A stretch of 64,000 nucleotides of DNA from a virus. Made by a program: the position numbers and the translations under genes. Within the stretch, counting starts at the first letter, position 1, and each line of letters opens with the position of its first letter. Positions 7,338 through 14,651 of the stretch are shown in pieces. The stretch is taken from positions 1 to 64,000 of the IMG/VR virus record IMGVR_UViG_3300032516_000011; one strand, written 5' to 3'. The notes below the pieces were generated by a model, which was not told where the DNA came from, searched no databases, and saw only the letters and a list, made by a program, of their open reading frames with translations.

Positions 7338-8105
7338 TTAATCCTTGATATTATCTAATCGTTTACGACGATCCAATCTTCTCAAAGTTTTCAAGGCGCG
7401 CATCTTTATTTGACGTACACGCTCTCGAGTTAGGTCGAGCTTTTCTCCAACCTCTTCCAAGGTGTATGACCGCTCGTGGTCTATTCCATATAACATTTTT
7501 AGTATGATTACTTCACGTTTTTCTAAATGATTTAACACCATTCCCAATTCTTGTTTAAATGCTTCTTGTAAAAGCAAATGGTCGGGAGCGGGGGTCTCTG
7601 AATTAACTAAAGTATCTATTAATAATAAGGATCGCTCACCATCTCCAGATGTTGGGGTGTGGTAGCTGATACTATATTGGTTATAGACTTCGTCAGAATT
7701 TAATTTCATTTCGTGAAAAATCTCTTGTTCCGAAGGTTCTCTCTGCAATGATTGAGATAATCCGGCCTTTGTTTTTTTAACTTGTTCTAAAATATTCACG
7801 CGATTGGCAGGTAAACGAATATGTCTATTGTGTTCGCCAAGACTCTGTAATATGGATTGTTTGATCCACCAACTGGCATAAGTTAAAAATTTGGTGCCAA
7901 GTTTTGGATCGAAACGTTCCATAGCCTTCAATAATCCTATAAACCCTTCTTGCATTAAATCGTCTAAGGGCATTCCCTGTTTTTGATATTGTCGGGCTAT
8001 CCCAGCAACAAATCGTGTATTTATTTTTATTAAAATGGTTTTGGCAGCCTCACTCCCAGCATGGGCTCTGACTGCCAATTCCGTTTGATCAATTGGTATA
8101 TCCAT
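7338..8105 (-). CDS. RpoD/RpoS-family sigma-70 factor (regions 2-4)
   Basis: DLMQEGFIGL, FDP..GTKFLTYASWWIKQ, TLEEVG...LTRERVRQI. Confidence 0.92.
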   Translation of the reverse strand: MDIPIDQTELAVRAHAGSEAAKTILIKINTRFVAGIARQYQKQGMPLDDLMQEGFIGLLKAMERFDPKLGTKFLTYASWWIKQSILQSLGEHNRHIRLPANRVNILEQVKKTKAGLSQSLQREPSEQEIFHEMKLNSDEVYNQYSISYHTPTSGDGERSLLLIDTLVNSETPAPDHLLLQEAFKQELGMVLNHLEKREVIILKMLYGIDHERSYTLEEVGEKLDLTRERVRQIKMRALKTLRRLDRRKRLDNIKD

Positions 8106-9473: not shown

Positions 9474-9502
9474 ATTGTACTAAATTCCCCTATCAATATC
9501 AA
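9474..9502 (-). promoter_or_regulatory. Sigma-70 promoter
   Basis: TTGATA-N17-TACAAT on the minus strand. Confidence 0.65.
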
Positions 9503-10746
9503 TCTTCGGAGATACATTCTTGGGGAGTTTTATCCTCTCTAATTCTTTGTATAATGCCAAACTCAAGTTTTCCGGTTTCATCGTGTATAGATTGATATTC
9601 TATCTCTACCACAAAGGGAACTTTACGTCTGTTAGATTTCAGTTCTTCGGTAAGTGCTTTAAGCTGATCATGAGAAAGTGTGCCTGGTCCGACATAACCA
9701 CGATCAATAATTTCTCCTTTAACTCCATATTCAACCAAATGAAATTTTGAGTAGAATTGCGAGTGCTTTCCGCTCTTTCCTTTAAGTACCTCGTTTACAA
9801 CGAAATCACCGGTTTCGACAAATTTATATTTGTATGATCCCTGTCTATGTGCCTTACCATCCAGTGAGTAAGAGATTTGCGACTTGTTGGGATCTCGGAG
9901 AACGAAACCTTCCCAGCCAGTTTGCTTCGCTGTTGTAACAAGCATTGCTTCTGGACCTTCCCATGTAATCATCTCTACGAGATTTTTTAAACGTAACTTC
10001 TTAAGTATGGTATAACGTTCCATGTAAGTCTTACCCCCAACAAATTTATTGTTATGGAAAAGAATGTCAAATGGAATACACTTGAATGTACCTTCCTTAG
10101 AAAGCTCTTTGTATCTCTTTATAGCTTCTATTGGATCCTCGTTACGAATTACTTGAGCAACAAATCTTGGAACCTCTTTGTTAAGTTTGTTATGGTGGTA
10201 CACAACCTCGGATAGAACGAAGTCGCCGGCATCACAAAGTTCCAGCTGTTGGTTGATGAATGGCAGTGTAGCGCAGCTCTCTGTAAGGTTCTCCATTCTT
10301 CGAGAGTACACCATCTCGAGCCCGCCAGCCTTAACAAGGAACACACAATGGCCATTATGTTTTCTTTGAGCGATTGTGGACAAGGATTTAAAGACAGATG
10401 GTGGACATTTAGATATTGGCTTACAGGGGCAAAACGACTCGGGAATTTGGTCGAGTAAGATATGCGCGGACCATTTATTTTTATTATTGGCCGCAGGTTT
10501 TTCATCGGGAGGTGTATCGGCATATCCCTCTTTCTTTTTTAATGTGATCTTAGCCTGCATCTCTGCTTTAGCCTGTTCGGCACCAGTCAATGCATTTGCC
10601 TTTCCTATGTTCATAGGGGTACAAACCTTTGTGGTCTCTTGCATTTTACCGCCAAGTATCCCCCAGCGAGTGATTAGCAAAGAACCATCGGCCTTGATTT
10701 CTAAGAACTTGGTTTTGCCAGTTCGGGCTTTTTGATAGAGTTTCAT
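9499..10746 (-). CDS. ATP-dependent DNA ligase with N-terminal WGR-like domain
   Basis: Motif I RKHNG, FDIL, EGFVLR, KYK, C-terminal RIREDK; N-terminal RWG domain. Confidence 0.85.
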   Translation of the reverse strand: MKLYQKARTGKTKFLEIKADGSLLITRWGILGGKMQETTKVCTPMNIGKANALTGAEQAKAEMQAKITLKKKEGYADTPPDEKPAANNKNKWSAHILLDQIPESFCPCKPISKCPPSVFKSLSTIAQRKHNGHCVFLVKAGGLEMVYSRRMENLTESCATLPFINQQLELCDAGDFVLSEVVYHHNKLNKEVPRFVAQVIRNEDPIEAIKRYKELSKEGTFKCIPFDILFHNNKFVGGKTYMERYTILKKLRLKNLVEMITWEGPEAMLVTTAKQTGWEGFVLRDPNKSQISYSLDGKAHRQGSYKYKFVETGDFVVNEVLKGKSGKHSQFYSKFHLVEYGVKGEIIDRGYVGPGTLSHDQLKALTEELKSNRRKVPFVVEIEYQSIHDETGKLEFGIIQRIREDKTPQECISED

Positions 10747-10751
10747 AATGC

Positions 10752-11354
10752 CTAAAACATATGATTGAATACTGGTGGATTATCTTCTTCTCGAATAAAA
10801 TTTAGGAAGTACTGAGCCAAAATAATGGCAGCAATTTGATTTCCTAATTGTATTATACCGGCGGACAGTTCATAGTCTCGTTGACAAGATGCACCCTTTG
10901 AACTTTTATCCGGAAGTGTTTTTAGCAGCTCTTCAAGAGTATTTTTTTTATTTTTGGTATAAATAACGATTCCTTGACCCTCCGCACGCACATCAACCCA
11001 ATATTTTTCAACATGTTTATGTACGTGTCGAAACATCATATCACGAAAGTCTCTGTTATCTACACAACAAATTATAACATCAAACGGTTCCATATCCTTT
11101 GGATCTTTCACGTAACGAGACTTGGCTTGAAAATCATATCTATCAGCCATAACTTTCGCCTTGTTCTCCAGGATATCCTTGGTTTCGTAATCCTGATAAA
11201 GCGTATTTTTCTTCTCCACATCATCTCCATCAAATACGGTAAAGGTTATTCCCTCTGGTATTTGATTTTTTTGTATTAGACGGTGTATGTGCCGTAGAAA
11301 CCAGGACCCGTTTCCACCGGCACCGACAACCATTACTTTCAAATTACTTTTCAA
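10752..11354 (-). CDS. ThiF/E1-like ubiquitin-like-protein activating enzyme
   Basis: GAGGNGS nucleotide loop, DGDDVEKKN..YQ, NKA, CVDN; candidate catalytic Cys in GASCQ. Confidence 0.88.
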   Translation of the reverse strand: MKSNLKVMVVGAGGNGSWFLRHIHRLIQKNQIPEGITFTVFDGDDVEKKNTLYQDYETKDILENKAKVMADRYDFQAKSRYVKDPKDMEPFDVIICCVDNRDFRDMMFRHVHKHVEKYWVDVRAEGQGIVIYTKNKKNTLEELLKTLPDKSSKGASCQRDYELSAGIIQLGNQIAAIILAQYFLNFIREEDNPPVFNHMF

Positions 11355-11782
11355 GGCAATAACTCCGTTTTAATAAATTCGTTTCCATTCCAGTAATAAC
11401 AATGAAATTGTTCATAATGGATACTATAAATAATGTATATTCCATGATATAATCTGCCATCAACGGCTCCATACCAATCAGCTATAGATGGATATGGACG
11501 ATCAAAATAATGAGAGTGTATAATACCAATGAACTGGGTTGTATGTTCAGCACTGAATAAATCAGTATCTAATATCGCATCAAGAAACTCTACGGGAGCC
11601 ATCATAAATCCCGCAGCTTTATCTGGAGCTATATTTTTCGTAAGTCTAACTTCTTCTACAGTACCGGTTAAGTTACTTGAACATCCTACCAATACTGCAC
11701 ATACCTCATCCCCTCCGGTATCTACTGCTATACGCTTAAATTTATCACGCAATGTATTAGGAAAGGTCAGTATTTGAATCAT
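11351..11782 (-). CDS. JAB/MPN+ metallo-isopeptidase
   Basis: EVCAVLVG...HSH...PSIAD matches the JAMM E...HxH-x7-S-x2-D motif. Confidence 0.88.
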   Translation of the reverse strand: MIQILTFPNTLRDKFKRIAVDTGGDEVCAVLVGCSSNLTGTVEEVRLTKNIAPDKAAGFMMAPVEFLDAILDTDLFSAEHTTQFIGIIHSHYFDRPYPSIADWYGAVDGRLYHGIYIIYSIHYEQFHCYYWNGNEFIKTELLP

Positions 11783-12005
11783 CCGAACCCCCGATAATTA
11801 CGTTTGTTATTGTGATGATGGAGGCAGCTTTCAAATTATCTACAGTAACATTTTCGATATTGGAAAGAACCTTATCAAGATAAAACCAACCACCCTTTTG
11901 TTGGATATACATTTTGATAGTATCTAATGCCTCTACTGCTGGCTTCTCGTGTACTGAAAAGCCAGATGCGTCGAGGATCTTAAATTTTATTAATGTGTCG
12001 TTCAT
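11757..12005 (-). CDS. Ubiquitin-like (beta-grasp) protein precursor
   Basis: 82 aa; ends with beta-strand ITITNVII-GG followed by SDDSNTDLS; adjacent to JAB and E1 genes. Confidence 0.7.
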   Translation of the reverse strand: MNDTLIKFKILDASGFSVHEKPAVEALDTIKMYIQQKGGWFYLDKVLSNIENVTVDNLKAASIITITNVIIGGSDDSNTDLS

Positions 12006-13954
12006 AATGTACTAATCTCCTTAGCAAGCTTTGAATCGTTTGACAGTGCAAAGAATCTGTTGACGAGACGAGCTGTATTCGTATGTTCGTTCTGTCCTTT
12101 ATCAACCATACAGATATATCTTCCACTAGGATATTCATATACTAATAGGCCTTTGGTTTCGACTATATAATTTCTTAACCCGCCCTTAATAAGATATCCA
12201 TTCAATAACTTACCGTTTTGAGCTTTAAAATCAGGTATCTCTTCAATACCAAACATTGTCATGGTACTTTTGAGAAGGTCCTCTTCTTTTTGTCGTTGAT
12301 CAATCAGAGCTTGTCGACCAGTAGTCATCAATTGTTTAATATCGTCGCCAGACATTCCTCCTGTTTCTTCGTCTAAGAGAAGATCAATAACACGTGACAT
12401 TCCACGTGCATTAAGAATAGTTAAAAGTTTATTGGTGTTGCCGATTTTAAAACGCTTATCATTAAACACAATAAAGTTTTTATTTTTGGTTCGTGTCATG
12501 CTTATTTTGAACTCCATCTGCATATCAAAAATTTCATCGTGTACTTTTACCAAAATTCCACCATGTAAATATTTATGATATTTCAATGAACAAGAAGACA
12601 CCGTATCGCAAAATATATTAAAGGCATCAGTATCGGGAAAACAAATAGCACGTCCTAGAACTTCTCGTACCTCATCTTTATTAATACGATAATTATTAAC
12701 TTTATACACATGTGTTATTACACCATCTTTGGCTTTTCGGGCTGTGTGGTCAAGATGGAATCGGACATCGCCAATTTTACCAACTACAGGTGTAACTGAT
12801 TTTGTCGCCGCTGTGTATAAGGATTGCATCCAGATATCTAGTACACGATCAAAATTAAGATGGTCTTCTGAATACTGCCCAGAAAATTTTGTAAGTATAT
12901 CCTTCATTTCAACACCATTACAGGATATAACCTGATTCTCATATTCAAACTCATGCTTTCGAAATGTCACATCGTTATACGAGAATTCTCCACCTGTAGA
13001 CAGGTCACCAATTTTATCCTTGATCTTCTTTTCAAGCTGTTTTACAGCGGCCTGTTCATCGGCCATATCTTGTTGCTTACGCATCCATCTTTTAACTAAA
13101 GTATCGAGCGTAGCATTATCGATAGCAAGTACGGGTTGTCCTCGACGATAGTTATCTATGACGTTCTTATCTTTTGGCAGTATAGGGTTGTTATCAGTAT
13201 AAAATATATGCGGCGTATCCGTAAGCGTATCTATATGTGAGAAGTATCTATTTTCATCTGTCCAATTGTATGCTGGATCCCCTACTTTCACAATATAAAA
13301 ATAGAGGCCCATTTCAAATCCAGAGTTAGCTGCATAACCATGTTGTTGTCGTTTCGATGTATAGATAGCAATACGTGTATCATCGGGTAATTGTAGAACA
13401 CCTAGTATATGGTGTATATATGCGGGGACCTCCGAGTAATCTTTTTTCTTTACATTTAAATCGGGAGCTATTTTCTCCACACATTTATATAGCATAGATA
13501 CTGTAGCGTCAGTAAACGGATGATAGTAATCAGGCTTATAACTCGGCAGTTCTTTTGTAAGGAGTTGTTGCTTAATTTCTTCCATACTATTAAAAACTAA
13601 GTTACCATCATGTCGTTGTGGAATAAATCGTGCGGCAGTTTCGAGGAACGGTAGATCCTGGACCTGAGGTAAAAATTTTAGATATATATTCTCCATTTTT
13701 ACTGCTGGATATTTTATGGTGTCTAAGATACCATCATGTCGAGTTAGATTTAGATAGGATTCAGTTTCATGCCTATTTAAATTTAGACATAAATCATATC
13801 CAGAAGTGGCAGCCCTATAAATATATGAGAAACTAGTTAATTTTTTATAGGCATCAAACACTGTTTCAAGATGTTTTACATCTATGTCCGTAAGGCCTAA
13901 TCCGTAGATATCACTATAGATTAAAAGGCGTTCAAGTTTAAGAGCTCTGTACAT
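12002..13954 (-). CDS. Large hypothetical protein of the Ubl operon (C-terminal YICMVD Cys domain)
   Basis: 650 aa; ATGA overlap with the Ubl gene; function not recognisable from motifs. Confidence 0.7.
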   Translation of the reverse strand: MYRALKLERLLIYSDIYGLGLTDIDVKHLETVFDAYKKLTSFSYIYRAATSGYDLCLNLNRHETESYLNLTRHDGILDTIKYPAVKMENIYLKFLPQVQDLPFLETAARFIPQRHDGNLVFNSMEEIKQQLLTKELPSYKPDYYHPFTDATVSMLYKCVEKIAPDLNVKKKDYSEVPAYIHHILGVLQLPDDTRIAIYTSKRQQHGYAANSGFEMGLYFYIVKVGDPAYNWTDENRYFSHIDTLTDTPHIFYTDNNPILPKDKNVIDNYRRGQPVLAIDNATLDTLVKRWMRKQQDMADEQAAVKQLEKKIKDKIGDLSTGGEFSYNDVTFRKHEFEYENQVISCNGVEMKDILTKFSGQYSEDHLNFDRVLDIWMQSLYTAATKSVTPVVGKIGDVRFHLDHTARKAKDGVITHVYKVNNYRINKDEVREVLGRAICFPDTDAFNIFCDTVSSCSLKYHKYLHGGILVKVHDEIFDMQMEFKISMTRTKNKNFIVFNDKRFKIGNTNKLLTILNARGMSRVIDLLLDEETGGMSGDDIKQLMTTGRQALIDQRQKEEDLLKSTMTMFGIEEIPDFKAQNGKLLNGYLIKGGLRNYIVETKGLLVYEYPSGRYICMVDKGQNEHTNTARLVNRFFALSNDSKLAKEISTL

Positions 13955-14228
13955 TTTTAAGTTTTTTGGTTAATTTTAATCTTACGATGTTCATCAAGTC
14001 GGTAAATATCTCTCTCCGCATACGTTGGCGATGACCATCTATTCTTATAATATTTTCTTGAAAATCTATAATCACTAAAGAATCGAAAAACTGTGTTGTA
14101 CCTTTTCTTAATAATACACCATTCTCAGTGATTACACCAGCAGGATACCAAGGCTGGCGCTTATATAGGGTAGCTTCGATTAAAGCAAGCCCTCTTTTTG
14201 TTTGACTCATTTTCATTTGGCGCTCCAA
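13938..14228 (-). CDS. Hypothetical protein
   Basis: 96-aa ORF overlapping the 650-aa gene; start uncertain. Confidence 0.55.
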   Translation of the reverse strand: MERQMKMSQTKRGLALIEATLYKRQPWYPAGVITENGVLLRKGTTQFFDSLVIIDFQENIIRIDGHRQRMRREIFTDLMNIVRLKLTKKLKNVQSS

Positions 14229-14232
14229 ATAT

Positions 14233-14266
14233 AAAAAAAGAAGCTCAGGATTATCCCGAGCTTCTT
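14233..14266 (-). terminator. Intrinsic terminator after tmRNA
   Basis: AAGAAGCTCGGGA-TAA-TCCTGAGCTTCTT hairpin followed by a T-run on the minus strand. Confidence 0.8.
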
Positions 14267-14651
14267 GGTGGACCTGCGGGCTTCGAAGCCCGGTCCGATC
14301 GTTAATCTAGTTCATCGAATTAGTATGCTTAGATTGCAGATGTTAACTTCGCCATAAAGACTTCTAGCTTAAACATGTATGTCTTTATAGTATATCCAGT
14401 CTCTCCTGGTTGTCGGCTCCAATAACATGGACATTATGAGCGTGTTCATGTCCATGTTCAGACGGTTGTCAGTTTAAGCTAAAGCAAAAACTGGTGCAAC
14501 GCTCTTCATACCAACGGGCTTGCCGAAGGTGAAGATGTCTGCGAAAGTGCTGTTGTTTTTGGCACTTAATGTTTTAACAGTTTTTACGTGGACCATCGCC
14601 ACGGCATACCGACTCCCCTCGTTATACAACCGTCGAATCCATTTCAGGCCC
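14266..14651 (-). ncRNA. ssrA: tmRNA
   Basis: 5' GGGCCTGAAATGGATTCGAC and 3' CAGGTCC-A-CCA form an acceptor stem with G3.U70; T-arm CGGGC-TTCGAA-GCCCG; internal tag frame TTAAGT|GCC...TAA at 14563-14474. Confidence 0.93.

What the first reader, a model, noticed from the sequence alone, without database searches (positions are those of the whole stretch)
10752..14228. Phage-encoded ubiquitin-like conjugation operon: large Cys protein, Ubl precursor, JAB, E1
Seen: five overlapping minus-strand genes (96-aa ORF, 650-aa protein, 82-aa protein ending ...TNVII-GG-SDDSNTDLS, JAB peptidase with intact E/HSH/S/D, ThiF/E1 with GAGGNG and a lone SCQ Cys but no CxxC zinc motifs), running on into DNA ligase. 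Known: E1+JAB+Ubl triads occur in bacterial sulfur-carrier pathways and in protein-conjugation systems (PRTRC, Bil, CBASS Cap2/Cap3), where Bil and CBASS act in host defence. Inference: no thiamine, molybdopterin, cysteine or tRNA-thiolation client and no classical E2 is recognisable in the window, so this may be a virus-side protein-tagging system. It could modify host or phage proteins, or decoy/reverse host Ubl-based defence. Best candidate for an undescribed system here.
Basis: partly seen in the sequence, partly recalled or inferred. Interest (0 to 1): 0.92.

Follow-up and report, generated by a model that had tools for sequence, protein, structure and literature searches.

The report
Phage ubiquitin-like tagging gene cassette
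A large sediment phage carries a four-gene set (a small ubiquitin-like protein, its activating enzyme, a trimming peptidase and a large unknown protein with one invariant cysteine) that recurs in hundreds of uncultured phages, was found in only one bacterial or archaeal genome record (a likely phage contig), and most likely attaches the small protein covalently to other proteins.

Summary
Five overlapping minus-strand ORFs are at the stated coordinates. The JAMM (E/HxH/S/D) and E1 (GxGG, SCQ) motifs are intact, and the 82-aa protein ends GG plus a 9-residue cap.

Four genes form a conserved module: a 650-aa protein ("BIG"), Ubl, JAB and E1. The 96-aa ORF is clade-specific and the ligase is only a neighbour.

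- The module is syntenic in 44 distinct phage systems.
- The Ubl GG is invariant (28/28 aligned). Many Ubls end exactly at GG, one is fused to JAB, and one carries a 160-aa extension.
- The E1 type occurs on at least 350 IMG/VR contigs. At least 77 of the 80 fetched loci also carry a long or short BIG-like gene.
- Only one cysteine of BIG (C615) is universal.
- BIG has no Pfam family and no convincing fold match. An E2-like fold is not shown.
- Five carrier genomes hold no rhodanese, cysteine desulfurase or PP-loop thiolase.
- The nearest bacterial E1s are PRTRC ThiF proteins, which sit beside Prok-E2_D.

Favoured reading, unproven: a phage Ubl activation and conjugation relay with BIG as the Cys carrier or acceptor. 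A sulfur-carrier role remains possible.

I found no publication. This scan noted the same cassette earlier on another genome.

The parts
12002..13954 (-). BIG: a 650-aa protein of no known family, translationally coupled to the Ubl gene (ATGA overlap). It is a conserved partner of Ubl and E1.
   Evidence: No Pfam, NCBIfam, PHROG or PADLOC hit. There are 26 full-length homologues at 35-100% identity. The AF2 model has pLDDT 81, with no Foldseek PDB match at E<=1e-3 and a best VIA Z of 4.8. It lies next to Ubl in 44 distinct systems.
12005..12373 (-). C-terminal domain of BIG (residues 528-650): a long helix, 4-5 strands, a loop carrying C615, then two helices. It is the most conserved part of the protein.
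   Evidence: The domain model has pLDDT 86 and pTM 0.72. A profile of this domain finds 496 clusters among 1.84 billion representatives, nearly all 600-800 aa with the domain at the C-terminus. It has a weak Pfam DUF7737 similarity in 17 of 25 members, best E 1.4e-5. It is homologous to the short 380-437-aa phage proteins: hhalign probability 91%, E 1e-6 over BIG 413-650.
12110..12112 (-). Codon of Cys615 (motif YEYPSGRYICMVDK), the only universally invariant cysteine of BIG.
   Evidence: Invariant in 51/51 long forms and 43/43 domain sequences. It aligns to the invariant Cys of the short forms (GPICIDN). Codon checked.
11757..12005 (-). Ubl precursor, 82 aa: a 73-residue body ending GG, plus a 9-residue cap (SDDSNTDLS).
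   Evidence: GG is invariant in 28/28 aligned homologues. The tails are absent or variable, 0-13 residues among the 44 distinct systems. There is a natural Ubl-JAB fusion in L030 and a Ubl with a 160-aa extension in L064. No Pfam hit. The nearest named ESM-Atlas cluster is ThiS at 0.84, which is only a lead.
11787..11792 (-). Gly72-Gly73 codons (GGGGGT), the predicted mature C-terminus and the site of adenylation.
   Evidence: for the codons. for invariance.
11351..11782 (-). JAMM/MPN+ metallopeptidase (JAB), 143 aa. It is predicted to remove the cap after GG and may also deconjugate.
   Evidence: Pfam Prok-JAB E 3.7e-8. E26, H89xH91, S99 and D102 are invariant. The profile hits solved JAMM1 desampylase at 4.5e-13, and also BRCC36, AMSH and Rpn11. 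All 13 systems whose Ubl has a tail carry a JAB gene.
10752..11354 (-). Minimal 200-aa E1-like adenylating enzyme (TTG start overlapping the JAB stop), with an invariant Cys157 (codon 10884-10886).
   Evidence: Pfam ThiF 51.8 bits. The best NCBIfam hit is PRTRC_ThiF at 69.8 bits, below its cut-off of 144.75. Invariant residues are GxGG, D42, K49-N50, Q54, D99-N100, R104, D121, R123 and S156-C157-Q158. The profile hits solved TcdA, Cap2, Uba1, UBA3 and MccB.
13938..14228 (-). 96-aa ORF overlapping the BIG start. It is clade-specific and not a conserved member of the module.
   Evidence: Homologues are found only in the window, L001/L007 and L013. No family hit.

Best explanation
This is a phage-encoded system that activates a ubiquitin-like protein and most likely conjugates it to other proteins. 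The proposed steps are as follows.

1. Inferred from motifs and co-occurrence: the JAMM peptidase cuts the 9-residue cap off the 82-aa precursor and exposes Gly72-Gly73.
2. Inferred from family membership and intact active-site residues: the minimal E1 adenylates that C-terminus with ATP and takes it onto its invariant Cys157.
3. Hypothesis: the Ubl then passes to the single universally invariant cysteine (C615) in the C-terminal domain of the 650-aa partner. That protein acts as a dedicated carrier or ligase, E2/E3-like in role although not in any recognisable fold. From there the Ubl goes to lysines of phage or host proteins that are still unknown.
4. Inferred: JAB also reverses the conjugates, because most systems keep it even when the Ubl needs no trimming.

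The cassette sits in the replication and transcription gene block, which suggests action early or in mid infection (inference).
For: - Anatomy: the JAMM and E1 catalytic residues are intact and invariant.
- Ubl terminus: the C-terminal GG is invariant in 28/28 aligned homologues, and many Ubls end exactly at GG.
- Precursor forms: there is a natural Ubl-JAB fusion and a Ubl with a 160-aa extension after GG.
- JAB and tails: all 13 tailed Ubls come with JAB, and all 8 JAB-less systems have a Ubl ending in GG. One of these is a 215-kb phage genome rated complete, with no JAB match anywhere.
- JAB retention: 23 systems with a GG-ended Ubl still keep JAB.
- BIG and Ubl linkage: the two genes are adjacent in every gene order, including E1-BIG-UBL, and often overlap by 4 nt.
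- Universal cysteine: only one BIG cysteine is universal across long and short forms.
- E1 affinities: the nearest bacterial relatives are PRTRC ThiF proteins and a Deinococcus plasmid ThiF (26-31% identity), and these sit next to Prok-E2_D proteins. The E1 is far from ThiF proper (27 bits against a cut-off of 275).
- No sulfur genes: no rhodanese, cysteine desulfurase or PP-loop thiolase in five carrier genomes, four of them rated complete, while the controls rang in 13-14 of 14 genomes.
- JAB affinities: the profile's closest solved relatives are Ubl and ubiquitin (iso)peptidases.
- Complex prediction of BIG with Ubl 1-73: weak support. The score was 0.56 (runs 0.56, 0.59, 0.00) against a best control of 0.01. 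The mark was reached by 58 of 80 solved complexes and 2 of 110 mismatched pairs. At 0.60 or under it was reached by only 7 of those 80 and by both mismatches. The runs agree in at least 0% of their contacts, and the partner's pLDDT is at least 66.
Against: - No conjugate, thioester or target has been observed. Everything past adenylation is inference.
- BIG's C-terminal domain has no significant match to E2, UBC or Prok-E2. Foldseek's best hit was a WYL domain at probability 0.28. VIA gave TSG101 UEV at Z 3.7 (rmsd 5.2, 89 aligned) and Ubc2 at Z 2.9 (rmsd 3.7, 69 aligned). hhalign against PRTRC B gave probability 0.25%.
- Tight 1:1 translational coupling of a Ubl with a large partner is also typical of sulfur-carrier and synthase pairs.
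- The tail and JAB association is only a trend (Fisher p 0.08, not corrected for phylogeny).
- The beta-grasp fold of the Ubl was not modelled.
- Archaeal SAMP-type systems conjugate with an E1 alone, so BIG need not be an enzyme.
Confidence: 0.5

Rival explanations
1. Sulfur-carrier pathway. The E1 adenylates the Ubl, a host persulfide converts it to a C-terminal thiocarboxylate, and BIG is an unknown sulfurtransferase or synthase. BIG would use it, perhaps through C615, to make a thiolated nucleotide, nucleic-acid modification or cofactor. JAB would only mature the precursor.
For: - E1, GG-Ubl and JAB triads are classic sulfur-carrier machinery (Iyer et al. 2006, PMC1779556).
- BIG and Ubl are translationally coupled, as MoaD/MoaE-type pairs are.
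- The cassette lies beside tmRNA or tRNA genes and nucleotide-metabolism genes in several phages.
- The nearest named ESM-Atlas cluster for the Ubl is ThiS, at 0.84, which is only a lead.
- JAB is dispensable where the Ubl ends in GG.
Against: - No rhodanese, cysteine desulfurase or PP-loop thiolase was found in five carrier genomes.
- The E1 scores far below the ThiF and MoeB equivalog cut-offs and is closest to the PRTRC and Cap2-type E1s, which accompany E2 domains.
- BIG has no enzyme-like fold match and only one conserved cysteine. Its best weak matches are small beta-barrels and helices.
- 23 systems keep JAB although their Ubl needs no trimming.
Confidence: 0.2
2. E1-only conjugation with BIG as the dedicated substrate. 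As in archaeal SAMPylation, the E1 alone transfers the Ubl, and BIG is the main acceptor. Its activity or stability would be switched by reversible Ubl attachment and by JAB. BIG may be a nucleic-acid-binding factor of the replication and transcription module.
For: - BIG and Ubl show strict adjacency and coupling.
- The BIG with Ubl complex prediction gave weak support: 0.56 against a best control of 0.01, with the calibration counts given under the best explanation.
- JAB is retained in systems whose Ubl ends in GG.
- BIG has weak OB-like (residues 178-260, Z about 4) and WYL-like matches, which would suit a binding protein.
- No E2 family was found.
Against: - No lysine is universally conserved across long and short forms. 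K619 is lost in the short forms.
- The one universal residue of obvious chemical significance is a cysteine, which suits a thioester carrier better than a lysine acceptor.
- The fold matches are too weak to assign nucleic-acid binding.
Confidence: 0.15
3. Counter-defence. The phage Ubl, E1 and JAB exist to jam or reverse host Ubl-based immunity (Bil, type II CBASS). JAB might strip host Ubl from phage proteins, or the phage Ubl might act as a decoy.
For: - Host Bil and CBASS systems use E1, E2, JAB and Ubl against phages (PMC10097602, PMC10557695; listed).
- The phage JAB and E1 give weak PADLOC hits to the JAB and E1-E2 models.
Against: - A deconjugase alone would do that job. Here the E1, the Ubl and BIG are the conserved core, and JAB is the dispensable member.
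- The PADLOC hits are weak and cover only generic catalytic cores.
- The module lies among core replication genes and is conserved across very divergent phages, unlike typical accessory anti-defence genes.
Confidence: 0.07

Closest known systems
PRTRC system (ParB-related, ThiF-related cassette) of plasmids and ICEs: ThiF (TIGR03736), protein A (JAB), protein B (Prok-E2_D), protein C (small Ubl-like), protein F (alpha-hel2)
   Same: The best family hit of the phage E1 is PRTRC_ThiF (2.1e-19), and the nearest plasmid homologues are PRTRC ThiF proteins at 26-31% identity. Both have a JAB gene directly upstream of the E1, a small protein of about 70 aa, and a Cys-bearing partner.
   Different: - The E1 score is below the family cut-off (69.8 against 144.75).
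- No ParB, E or F genes lie in the cassette.
- BIG and the Ubl show no significant similarity to proteins B, F or C.
- PRTRC C proteins end in a single Gly, not GG.
- PF14460 was not found in five phage genomes.
- The phage system is viral, not plasmid-borne.
Bil (BilABCD) and type II CBASS Cap2/Cap3 bacterial ubiquitin-like conjugation systems
   Same: Both have an E1, a JAB and a Ubl-like substrate with a C-terminal Gly, and both pass it through a Cys relay. The solved Cap2 E1 domain is among the profile hits (E 1.8e-4). PADLOC JAB and E1-E2 models give weak hits.
   Different: - Those systems are host defence systems with a recognisable UBC-like E2. Here no E2 family is detectable.
- The partner here is a protein of 380-790 aa with no known fold.
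- This system is encoded by the virus.
Archaeal SAMP / UbaA / JAMM1 and Thermus TtuB / TtuC systems
   Same: Both have a minimal E1, a GG-ended Ubl and a JAMM desampylase. The closest named solved relative of the phage JAB profile is P. furiosus JAMM1 at 4.5e-13, after an unnamed 2kks chain at 1.3e-13, and its best NCBIfam hit is the haloarchaeal desampylase (1.1e-12, below cut-off). Conjugation without an E2 is possible in those systems.
   Different: Those Ubls double as sulfur carriers and have known clients (MoaE, TtuA/NcsA). No such client or PP-loop enzyme was found in the phage genomes searched. They have no counterpart of BIG.
Lambda and T1 tail assembly proteins I (Ubl domain) and K (JAB + NlpC/P60)
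   Same: This is the previously described phage pairing of a Ubl with a JAB peptidase (PMC1779556). The phage JAB here gives weak PHROG hits to those tail proteins.
   Different: The lambda pair has no E1 and lies in the tail module. Here there is an E1 and the cassette lies in the replication block, far from the tail genes.

Membership tests
E1-like adenylating enzymes (ThiF/MoeB/Uba superfamily, PF00899) | Match to the family model above its cut-off, with the nucleotide-binding GxGxxG and the catalytic Asp, Arg and Lys residues | tested here: met
   PF00899 scores 51.8 bits against a cut-off of 28.1. GxGG, D42, K49-N50, Q54, D99-N100, R104, D121 and R123 are invariant in 20 sequences.
E1-like adenylating enzymes (conjugating type) | A conserved cysteine able to take the Ubl as a thioester | tested here: inconclusive
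   S156-C157-Q158 is invariant. Its structural equivalence to the crossover-loop Cys of ThiF, UbaA or Cap2 was not established, because the PDB profile alignments stop before it.
JAMM/MPN+ metallopeptidases | The E...HxH...S...D zinc and catalytic motif, and a family match | tested here: met
   Prok-JAB scores 33.7 bits against a cut-off of 25. E26, H89, H91, S99 and D102 are invariant in 16 sequences. Solved JAMM1 is hit at 4.5e-13.
Ubiquitin-like modifiers and sulfur carriers (beta-grasp with C-terminal Gly-Gly) | A conserved C-terminal diglycine that is exposed or can be exposed | tested here: met
   GG is invariant in 28/28 aligned homologues. 31 of 44 distinct systems end exactly at GG, and the others have tails of 1-13 residues.
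Ubiquitin-like modifiers and sulfur carriers (beta-grasp with C-terminal Gly-Gly) | Beta-grasp fold | not tested
Sequence profiles find no Ubl family. ThiS is the nearest named Atlas cluster at 0.84, which is only a lead.
PRTRC system | ThiF protein scoring above the TIGR03736 cut-off | tested here: not met
   69.8 bits against a cut-off of 144.75.
PRTRC system | Protein B (Prok-E2_D) and protein C present | tested here: not met
   PF14460 was not found in five carrier genomes, while its control rang. No NCBIfam PRTRC B or C hit for BIG or the Ubl. hhalign probabilities were 0.25% and 0.4%.
E2/UBC-like fold (UQ_con, Prok-E2_A-E, RWD, UEV) for the BIG C-terminal domain | UBC-like alpha/beta fold with a catalytic Cys after the beta-meander | tested here: inconclusive
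   - The order of secondary-structure elements (helix, 4 strands, Cys loop, 2 helices) is compatible.
- Matches are weak: TSG101 UEV at Z 3.7 (rmsd 5.2, 89 aligned), Ubc2 at Z 2.9 (rmsd 3.7, 69 aligned), and a KMN RWD domain at Z 3.5 (rmsd 10.1, 104 aligned).
- The hhalign top alignment to Prok-E2_D puts Cys on Cys but is not significant (probability 0.25%).
ThiS/MoaD-type sulfur-carrier pathway | E1 of the ThiF or MoeB equivalog, and a sulfur-mobilising or client enzyme in the genome | tested here: not met
   TIGR02356 scores 27.1 bits against a cut-off of 275. No rhodanese, Aminotran_5 or ATP_bind_3 in five genomes, while the controls rang in 13-14 of 14. Host enzymes could substitute, so the mechanism is not excluded.
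Bil / CBASS Cap2-Cap3 defence systems | Matches to the PADLOC E1-E2, JAB and Ubl models, with an E2 domain | tested here: not met
   Only weak hits to the E1 part of the E1-E2 models (2.7e-4) and to JAB (3.1e-6). There were none for the Ubl or BIG.

The most novel reading that the evidence does not exclude
Large environmental phages encode their own ubiquitin-like conjugation pathway. In it, a previously unknown protein family (380-790 aa, with one universal catalytic cysteine and no recognisable E2 or E3 fold) replaces E2/E3 and tags host or phage proteins during infection. This would be a virus-side counterpart of the bacterial Bil, CBASS and Bub systems and a new class of Ubl-transfer enzyme.
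Probability: 0.35. Interest if true: 0.9.

Novelty: new variant of a known kind. Interest (0 to 1): 0.8.

Why it matters
Ubiquitin-like conjugation in prokaryotes has so far been characterised as host machinery: sulfur carriers, SAMPs, and the antiphage Bil, CBASS and Bub systems. A conserved, virus-encoded E1-Ubl-JAB module with a dedicated partner of unknown fold would show that phages also use covalent protein tagging.

It recurs on at least 350 viral contigs. In one genome for each of 185,579 bacterial and archaeal species it was found only once, on a 9.9-kb MAG contig that looks like phage DNA.

It offers a compact four-protein system that could be tested in E. coli. It may also define a new kind of Ubl-transfer enzyme and open the question of which host or phage proteins are tagged.

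Tried and rejected
I used the search for related loci for genomic context instead.
- Nucleotide search and tblastn of the cassette and of BIG against 50,697 GenBank phages found no match. The E1 gave only partial, weak hits to ThiF genes of cultured jumbo phages, none covering 80% of the query.
- Foldseek of full-length BIG against the PDB gave nothing at E<=1e-3. VIA wide gave a best Z of 4.8.
- For the C-terminal domain model, Foldseek's best hit was a BrxR WYL domain at probability 0.28, and no E2 was listed. The VIA wide list was filled by single long helices, because I included the 33-residue helix in the model.
- Profiles of the Ubl and of the C-terminal domain against PDB sequences gave nothing meaningful.
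- The ESM Atlas search with the C-terminal domain gave no usable hit.
- DUF7737 lead: no paper mentions it. It was not found in 201 genomes of the phylum of G001 (the genome holding L033) or in five PRTRC or ThiF plasmids, so it stays unexplained.
- UQ_con, Prok-E2_A and Prok-E2_B were not found in five phage genomes. Their controls rang nowhere, so these negatives carry little weight.
- hhalign of BIG or the Ubl against PRTRC B, F and C was not significant.
- Sequencing runs: no RNA holder is listed. The holders are sediment-metagenome DNA runs, and read laying was not used.
- I rejected a PP-loop or Fe-S thiolase reading of BIG. There is no PP-loop family match, and C438, C455 and H460 are not conserved in the short forms.

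Full report
**1. What is in the window**

They are 96 aa (13938-14228), 650 aa (12002-13954, here called BIG), 82 aa (11757-12005), 143 aa (11351-11782) and 200 aa (10752-11354). An ATP-dependent DNA ligase (9499-10746) follows.

The gene junctions overlap by 17, 4, 26 and 4 nt. BIG/Ubl share ATGA and JAB/E1 share TTGA.

The window belongs to a 103,723-bp IMG/VR virus record with a CheckV completeness of 47%. It encodes tail sheath, baseplate wedge, DNA polymerase, RNR, helicase and a CCA-enzyme homologue. It is therefore a large contractile-tailed phage. Near-identical DNA occurs in sediment metagenomes.

**2. Identity of the recognisable parts**

- The 200-aa protein is a ThiF-family E1 (PF00899, 51.8 bits). 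Its best NCBIfam model is PRTRC_ThiF (2.1e-19), but below that family's cut-off. The ThiF proper equivalog scores only 27 bits.
- Across 20 homologues the nucleotide-binding and catalytic residues and an S-C-Q motif (C157) are invariant. There is no CxxC. The protein has two further, non-conserved cysteines.
- The 143-aa protein is a JAMM peptidase (Prok-JAB 3.7e-8) with E26, H89xH91, S99 and D102 invariant. Its profile's nearest named solved relatives are the archaeal desampylase JAMM1 (4.5e-13), BRCC36, AMSH and Rpn11. An unnamed chain, 2kks, ranks first at 1.3e-13. The named relatives all cut at Ubl or ubiquitin C-termini.
- The 82-aa protein has no family hit but ends ...IIGG plus nine residues.

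**3. Conservation**

BIG has 26 full-length homologues (35-100% identity), all from metagenomes and none with a Pfam domain.

Scans of IMG/VR and JGI metagenomes with the BIG alignment gave 32 loci. The order BIG-Ubl-JAB-E1 recurs in them.

In the Ubl alignment the diglycine is invariant (28/28). Most sequences stop exactly at GG, and the others carry unrelated tails of 1-13 residues.

Three natural variants bear on how the Ubl is processed:
- In L030 the Ubl is fused through ...LEGG to a JAB domain.
- In L064 the Ubl carries a 160-residue extension after GG and is followed by a separate JAB gene.
- The 215-kb phage behind L002, rated 100% complete, has BIG-Ubl(GG end)-E1 and no JAB match anywhere.

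Among 44 distinct systems, all 13 with a tailed Ubl have JAB, and the 8 without JAB all have a Ubl ending in GG. This is a trend only (Fisher p 0.08, no phylogenetic correction). Another 23 systems keep JAB although no trimming is needed, which suggests a second role such as deconjugation.

**4. Breadth**

Of the 80 best loci:
- 42 contain long BIG by HMM, including rearranged E1-BIG-Ubl orders that keep BIG next to the Ubl.
- 35 contain a shorter protein of 380-437 aa about 1-2 kb upstream of the E1.

That short protein is homologous to BIG residues 413-650 (hhalign probability 91%, E 1e-6, 237 columns). Independently, Foldseek of the BIG model against BFVD finds three viral proteins of 416-452 aa at probability 1.0.

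Complete phage genomes of 93-98 kb in this short-form group also have a JAB-like, sub-threshold match; by my coordinate check it lies just downstream of the E1 in the 29%-complete G205 and about 1.7 kb from it in G204.

A profile of the BIG C-terminal domain finds 496 clusters among 1.84 billion representatives. Nearly all are 600-800 aa with the domain at the very C-terminus.

By contrast, one genome for each of 185,579 bacterial and archaeal species yielded a single hit. It is a 9.9-kb contig of a MAG that carries the same phage genes. GenBank phages have no BIG and only partial, weak E1 hits.

**5. What BIG is**

It has no hit in Pfam, NCBIfam, PHROGs or PADLOC.

The AF2 model is confident (pLDDT 81) and multi-domain, but it has no PDB match. 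Foldseek gave nothing at E<=1e-3. The best VIA Z was 4.8 (rmsd 2.1, 62 aligned), and there is an OB-like barrel at 178-260 at Z about 4.

Only one cysteine, C615 in YEYPSGRYICMVDK, is invariant in all long forms (51/51). It aligns with the invariant Cys of the short forms (GPICIDN). C438, C455 and H460 are conserved only in long forms.

The C-terminal domain folded alone (pLDDT 86, pTM 0.72) is a helix, four strands, the Cys-bearing segment and two helices. That order matches a UBC-like domain, and the local motif recalls G-x-I-C-L-D of E2 enzymes (my recollection, so only a lead).

The tests do not establish this:
- Foldseek's best hit is a WYL domain at probability 0.28.
- The second-look aligner gives TSG101 UEV at Z 3.7 (rmsd 5.2, 89 aligned), an RWD domain at Z 3.5 (rmsd 10.1, 104 aligned) and Ubc2 at Z 2.9 (rmsd 3.7, 69 aligned).
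- hhalign against seven PRTRC B (Prok-E2_D) proteins puts Cys on Cys, but at probability 0.25%.

I therefore call BIG E2-like in proposed role only.

A weak, unexplained similarity to Pfam DUF7737 appears in 17 of 25 members (best E 1.4e-5).

The BIG with Ubl complex prediction gave weak support. The score was 0.56 (runs 0.56, 0.59, 0.00) against a best control of 0.01. The mark was reached by 58 of 80 solved complexes and 2 of 110 mismatches, but at 0.60 or under by only 7 of the 80 and by both mismatches. Contact agreement was at least 0% and the partner's pLDDT at least 66.

**6. Conjugation or sulfur transfer**

Three findings favour conjugation:
- The nearest bacterial E1s are PRTRC ThiF proteins and a Deinococcus plasmid ThiF. 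Their neighbours include Prok-E2_D proteins (PRTRC protein B) and a JAB. The E1 lineage is thus the one that accompanies E2-type partners, not the ThiF or MoeB lineage.
- Five carrier genomes, four rated complete, hold no rhodanese, cysteine desulfurase or PP-loop thiolase, while the controls rang in 13-14 of 14 genomes.
- JAB is retained where trimming is unnecessary.

Several points favour or permit sulfur transfer:
- Host enzymes could supply the sulfur.
- BIG-Ubl coupling resembles carrier and synthase pairs.
- The cassette lies beside tmRNA or tRNA genes in several phages.
- Nothing beyond adenylation is demonstrated.

I put conjugation with BIG as Cys carrier at 0.5, sulfur carrier at 0.2, BIG as dedicated substrate of an E1-only system at 0.15, and counter-defence at 0.07.

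**7. Comparison with known systems, and novelty**

The cassette works like the PRTRC, Bil, CBASS and SAMP systems but is a member of none of them. It fails the PRTRC cut-off and lacks proteins B, C, F and ParB. It lacks the E2 of Bil and Cap2. It lacks the clients of SAMP and TtuB.

The only phage Ubl-JAB pairing I found described is the lambda/T1 tail-assembly pair, which has no E1 (PMC1779556). The 2021 comparative overview of 224 jumbo phages does not mention a Ubl, E1 or JAB system (PMC7824862), and full-text searches found no paper on one.

Cultured jumbo phages such as Acinetobacter phage ME3 carry annotated ThiF and PRTRC-A-like genes, but with a different small protein and partner.

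I class this as a new variant of a known kind: the E1, Ubl and JAB chemistry is known, while the viral setting and the partner family are new.

This scan had already flagged the same cassette on another genome (e1-5895319).

Noticed in passing
window 14266-14651 (-): ARAGORN calls a phage tmRNA with a 29-residue tag ending FALA, directly upstream of the cassette. tmRNAs with similar tags lie in the same position in L001 (4768-5157) and L013 (7296-7673).
   Followed up: partly
L002 133-207, 6545-7978; L014 994-4975: tRNA genes lie just upstream of BIG in other clades. L002 has four, including one with a CTA (amber-reading) anticodon that ARAGORN calls tRNA-Pyl. L014 has an array of 21. The CTA tRNA may hint at TAG recoding in that 215-kb phage.
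   Followed up: no
window 7338-8105 (-); L002 11543-12343; L004 10966-11769; L092 5207-6052: A phage sigma-70 factor followed by DNA polymerase I lies a short way downstream of the E1 in all the long-form loci I read (window, L002, L004). In the short-form group, a protein with a TFIIB-type zinc ribbon (PF08271, 3e-6) sits between the short BIG-like gene and the E1. I could not tell whether this reflects a functional link or only conserved genome order.
   Followed up: partly
L030 1420-2025; L064 5750-6457: L030 carries a natural Ubl-JAB fusion protein (201 aa, joined at ...LEGG). L064 carries a Ubl with a 160-residue C-terminal extension of unknown nature after GG.
   Followed up: partly
L033 (PWNH01000053.1, 9908 bp): The only hit in 185,579 species genomes is a 9.9-kb contig binned into a Methanomassiliicoccaceae MAG. 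It carries BIG, Ubl, E1 and a 599-aa ORF matching in size and position the phage PolA, so it is probably a mis-binned phage contig. Its JAB frame has an in-frame TAA.
   Followed up: partly
window 9499-10746 (-); L127 4775-5017; L130 1838-2236: The ligase next to the E1 has a weak N-terminal WGR-domain match (E 0.016). Annotated WGR-domain proteins also lie next to or near PRTRC ThiF genes on two plasmids. This may be coincidence.
   Followed up: no
window 12005-12373 (-): 17 of 25 members of the BIG C-terminal domain alignment give sub-threshold matches to Pfam DUF7737 (best E 1.4e-5). That family rings in the Deinococcus radiodurans and Bacteroides thetaiotaomicron control genomes. I could not retrieve an example to see its context.
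   Followed up: partly
L118 (Acinetobacter phage ME3, KU935715.1 132612-140833): This cultured jumbo phage has an annotated PRTRC protein A-like JAB and a 350-aa ThiF, followed by a 72-aa protein ending ...VLG and a 549-aa protein. It may be a different phage Ubl-like module.
   Followed up: partly
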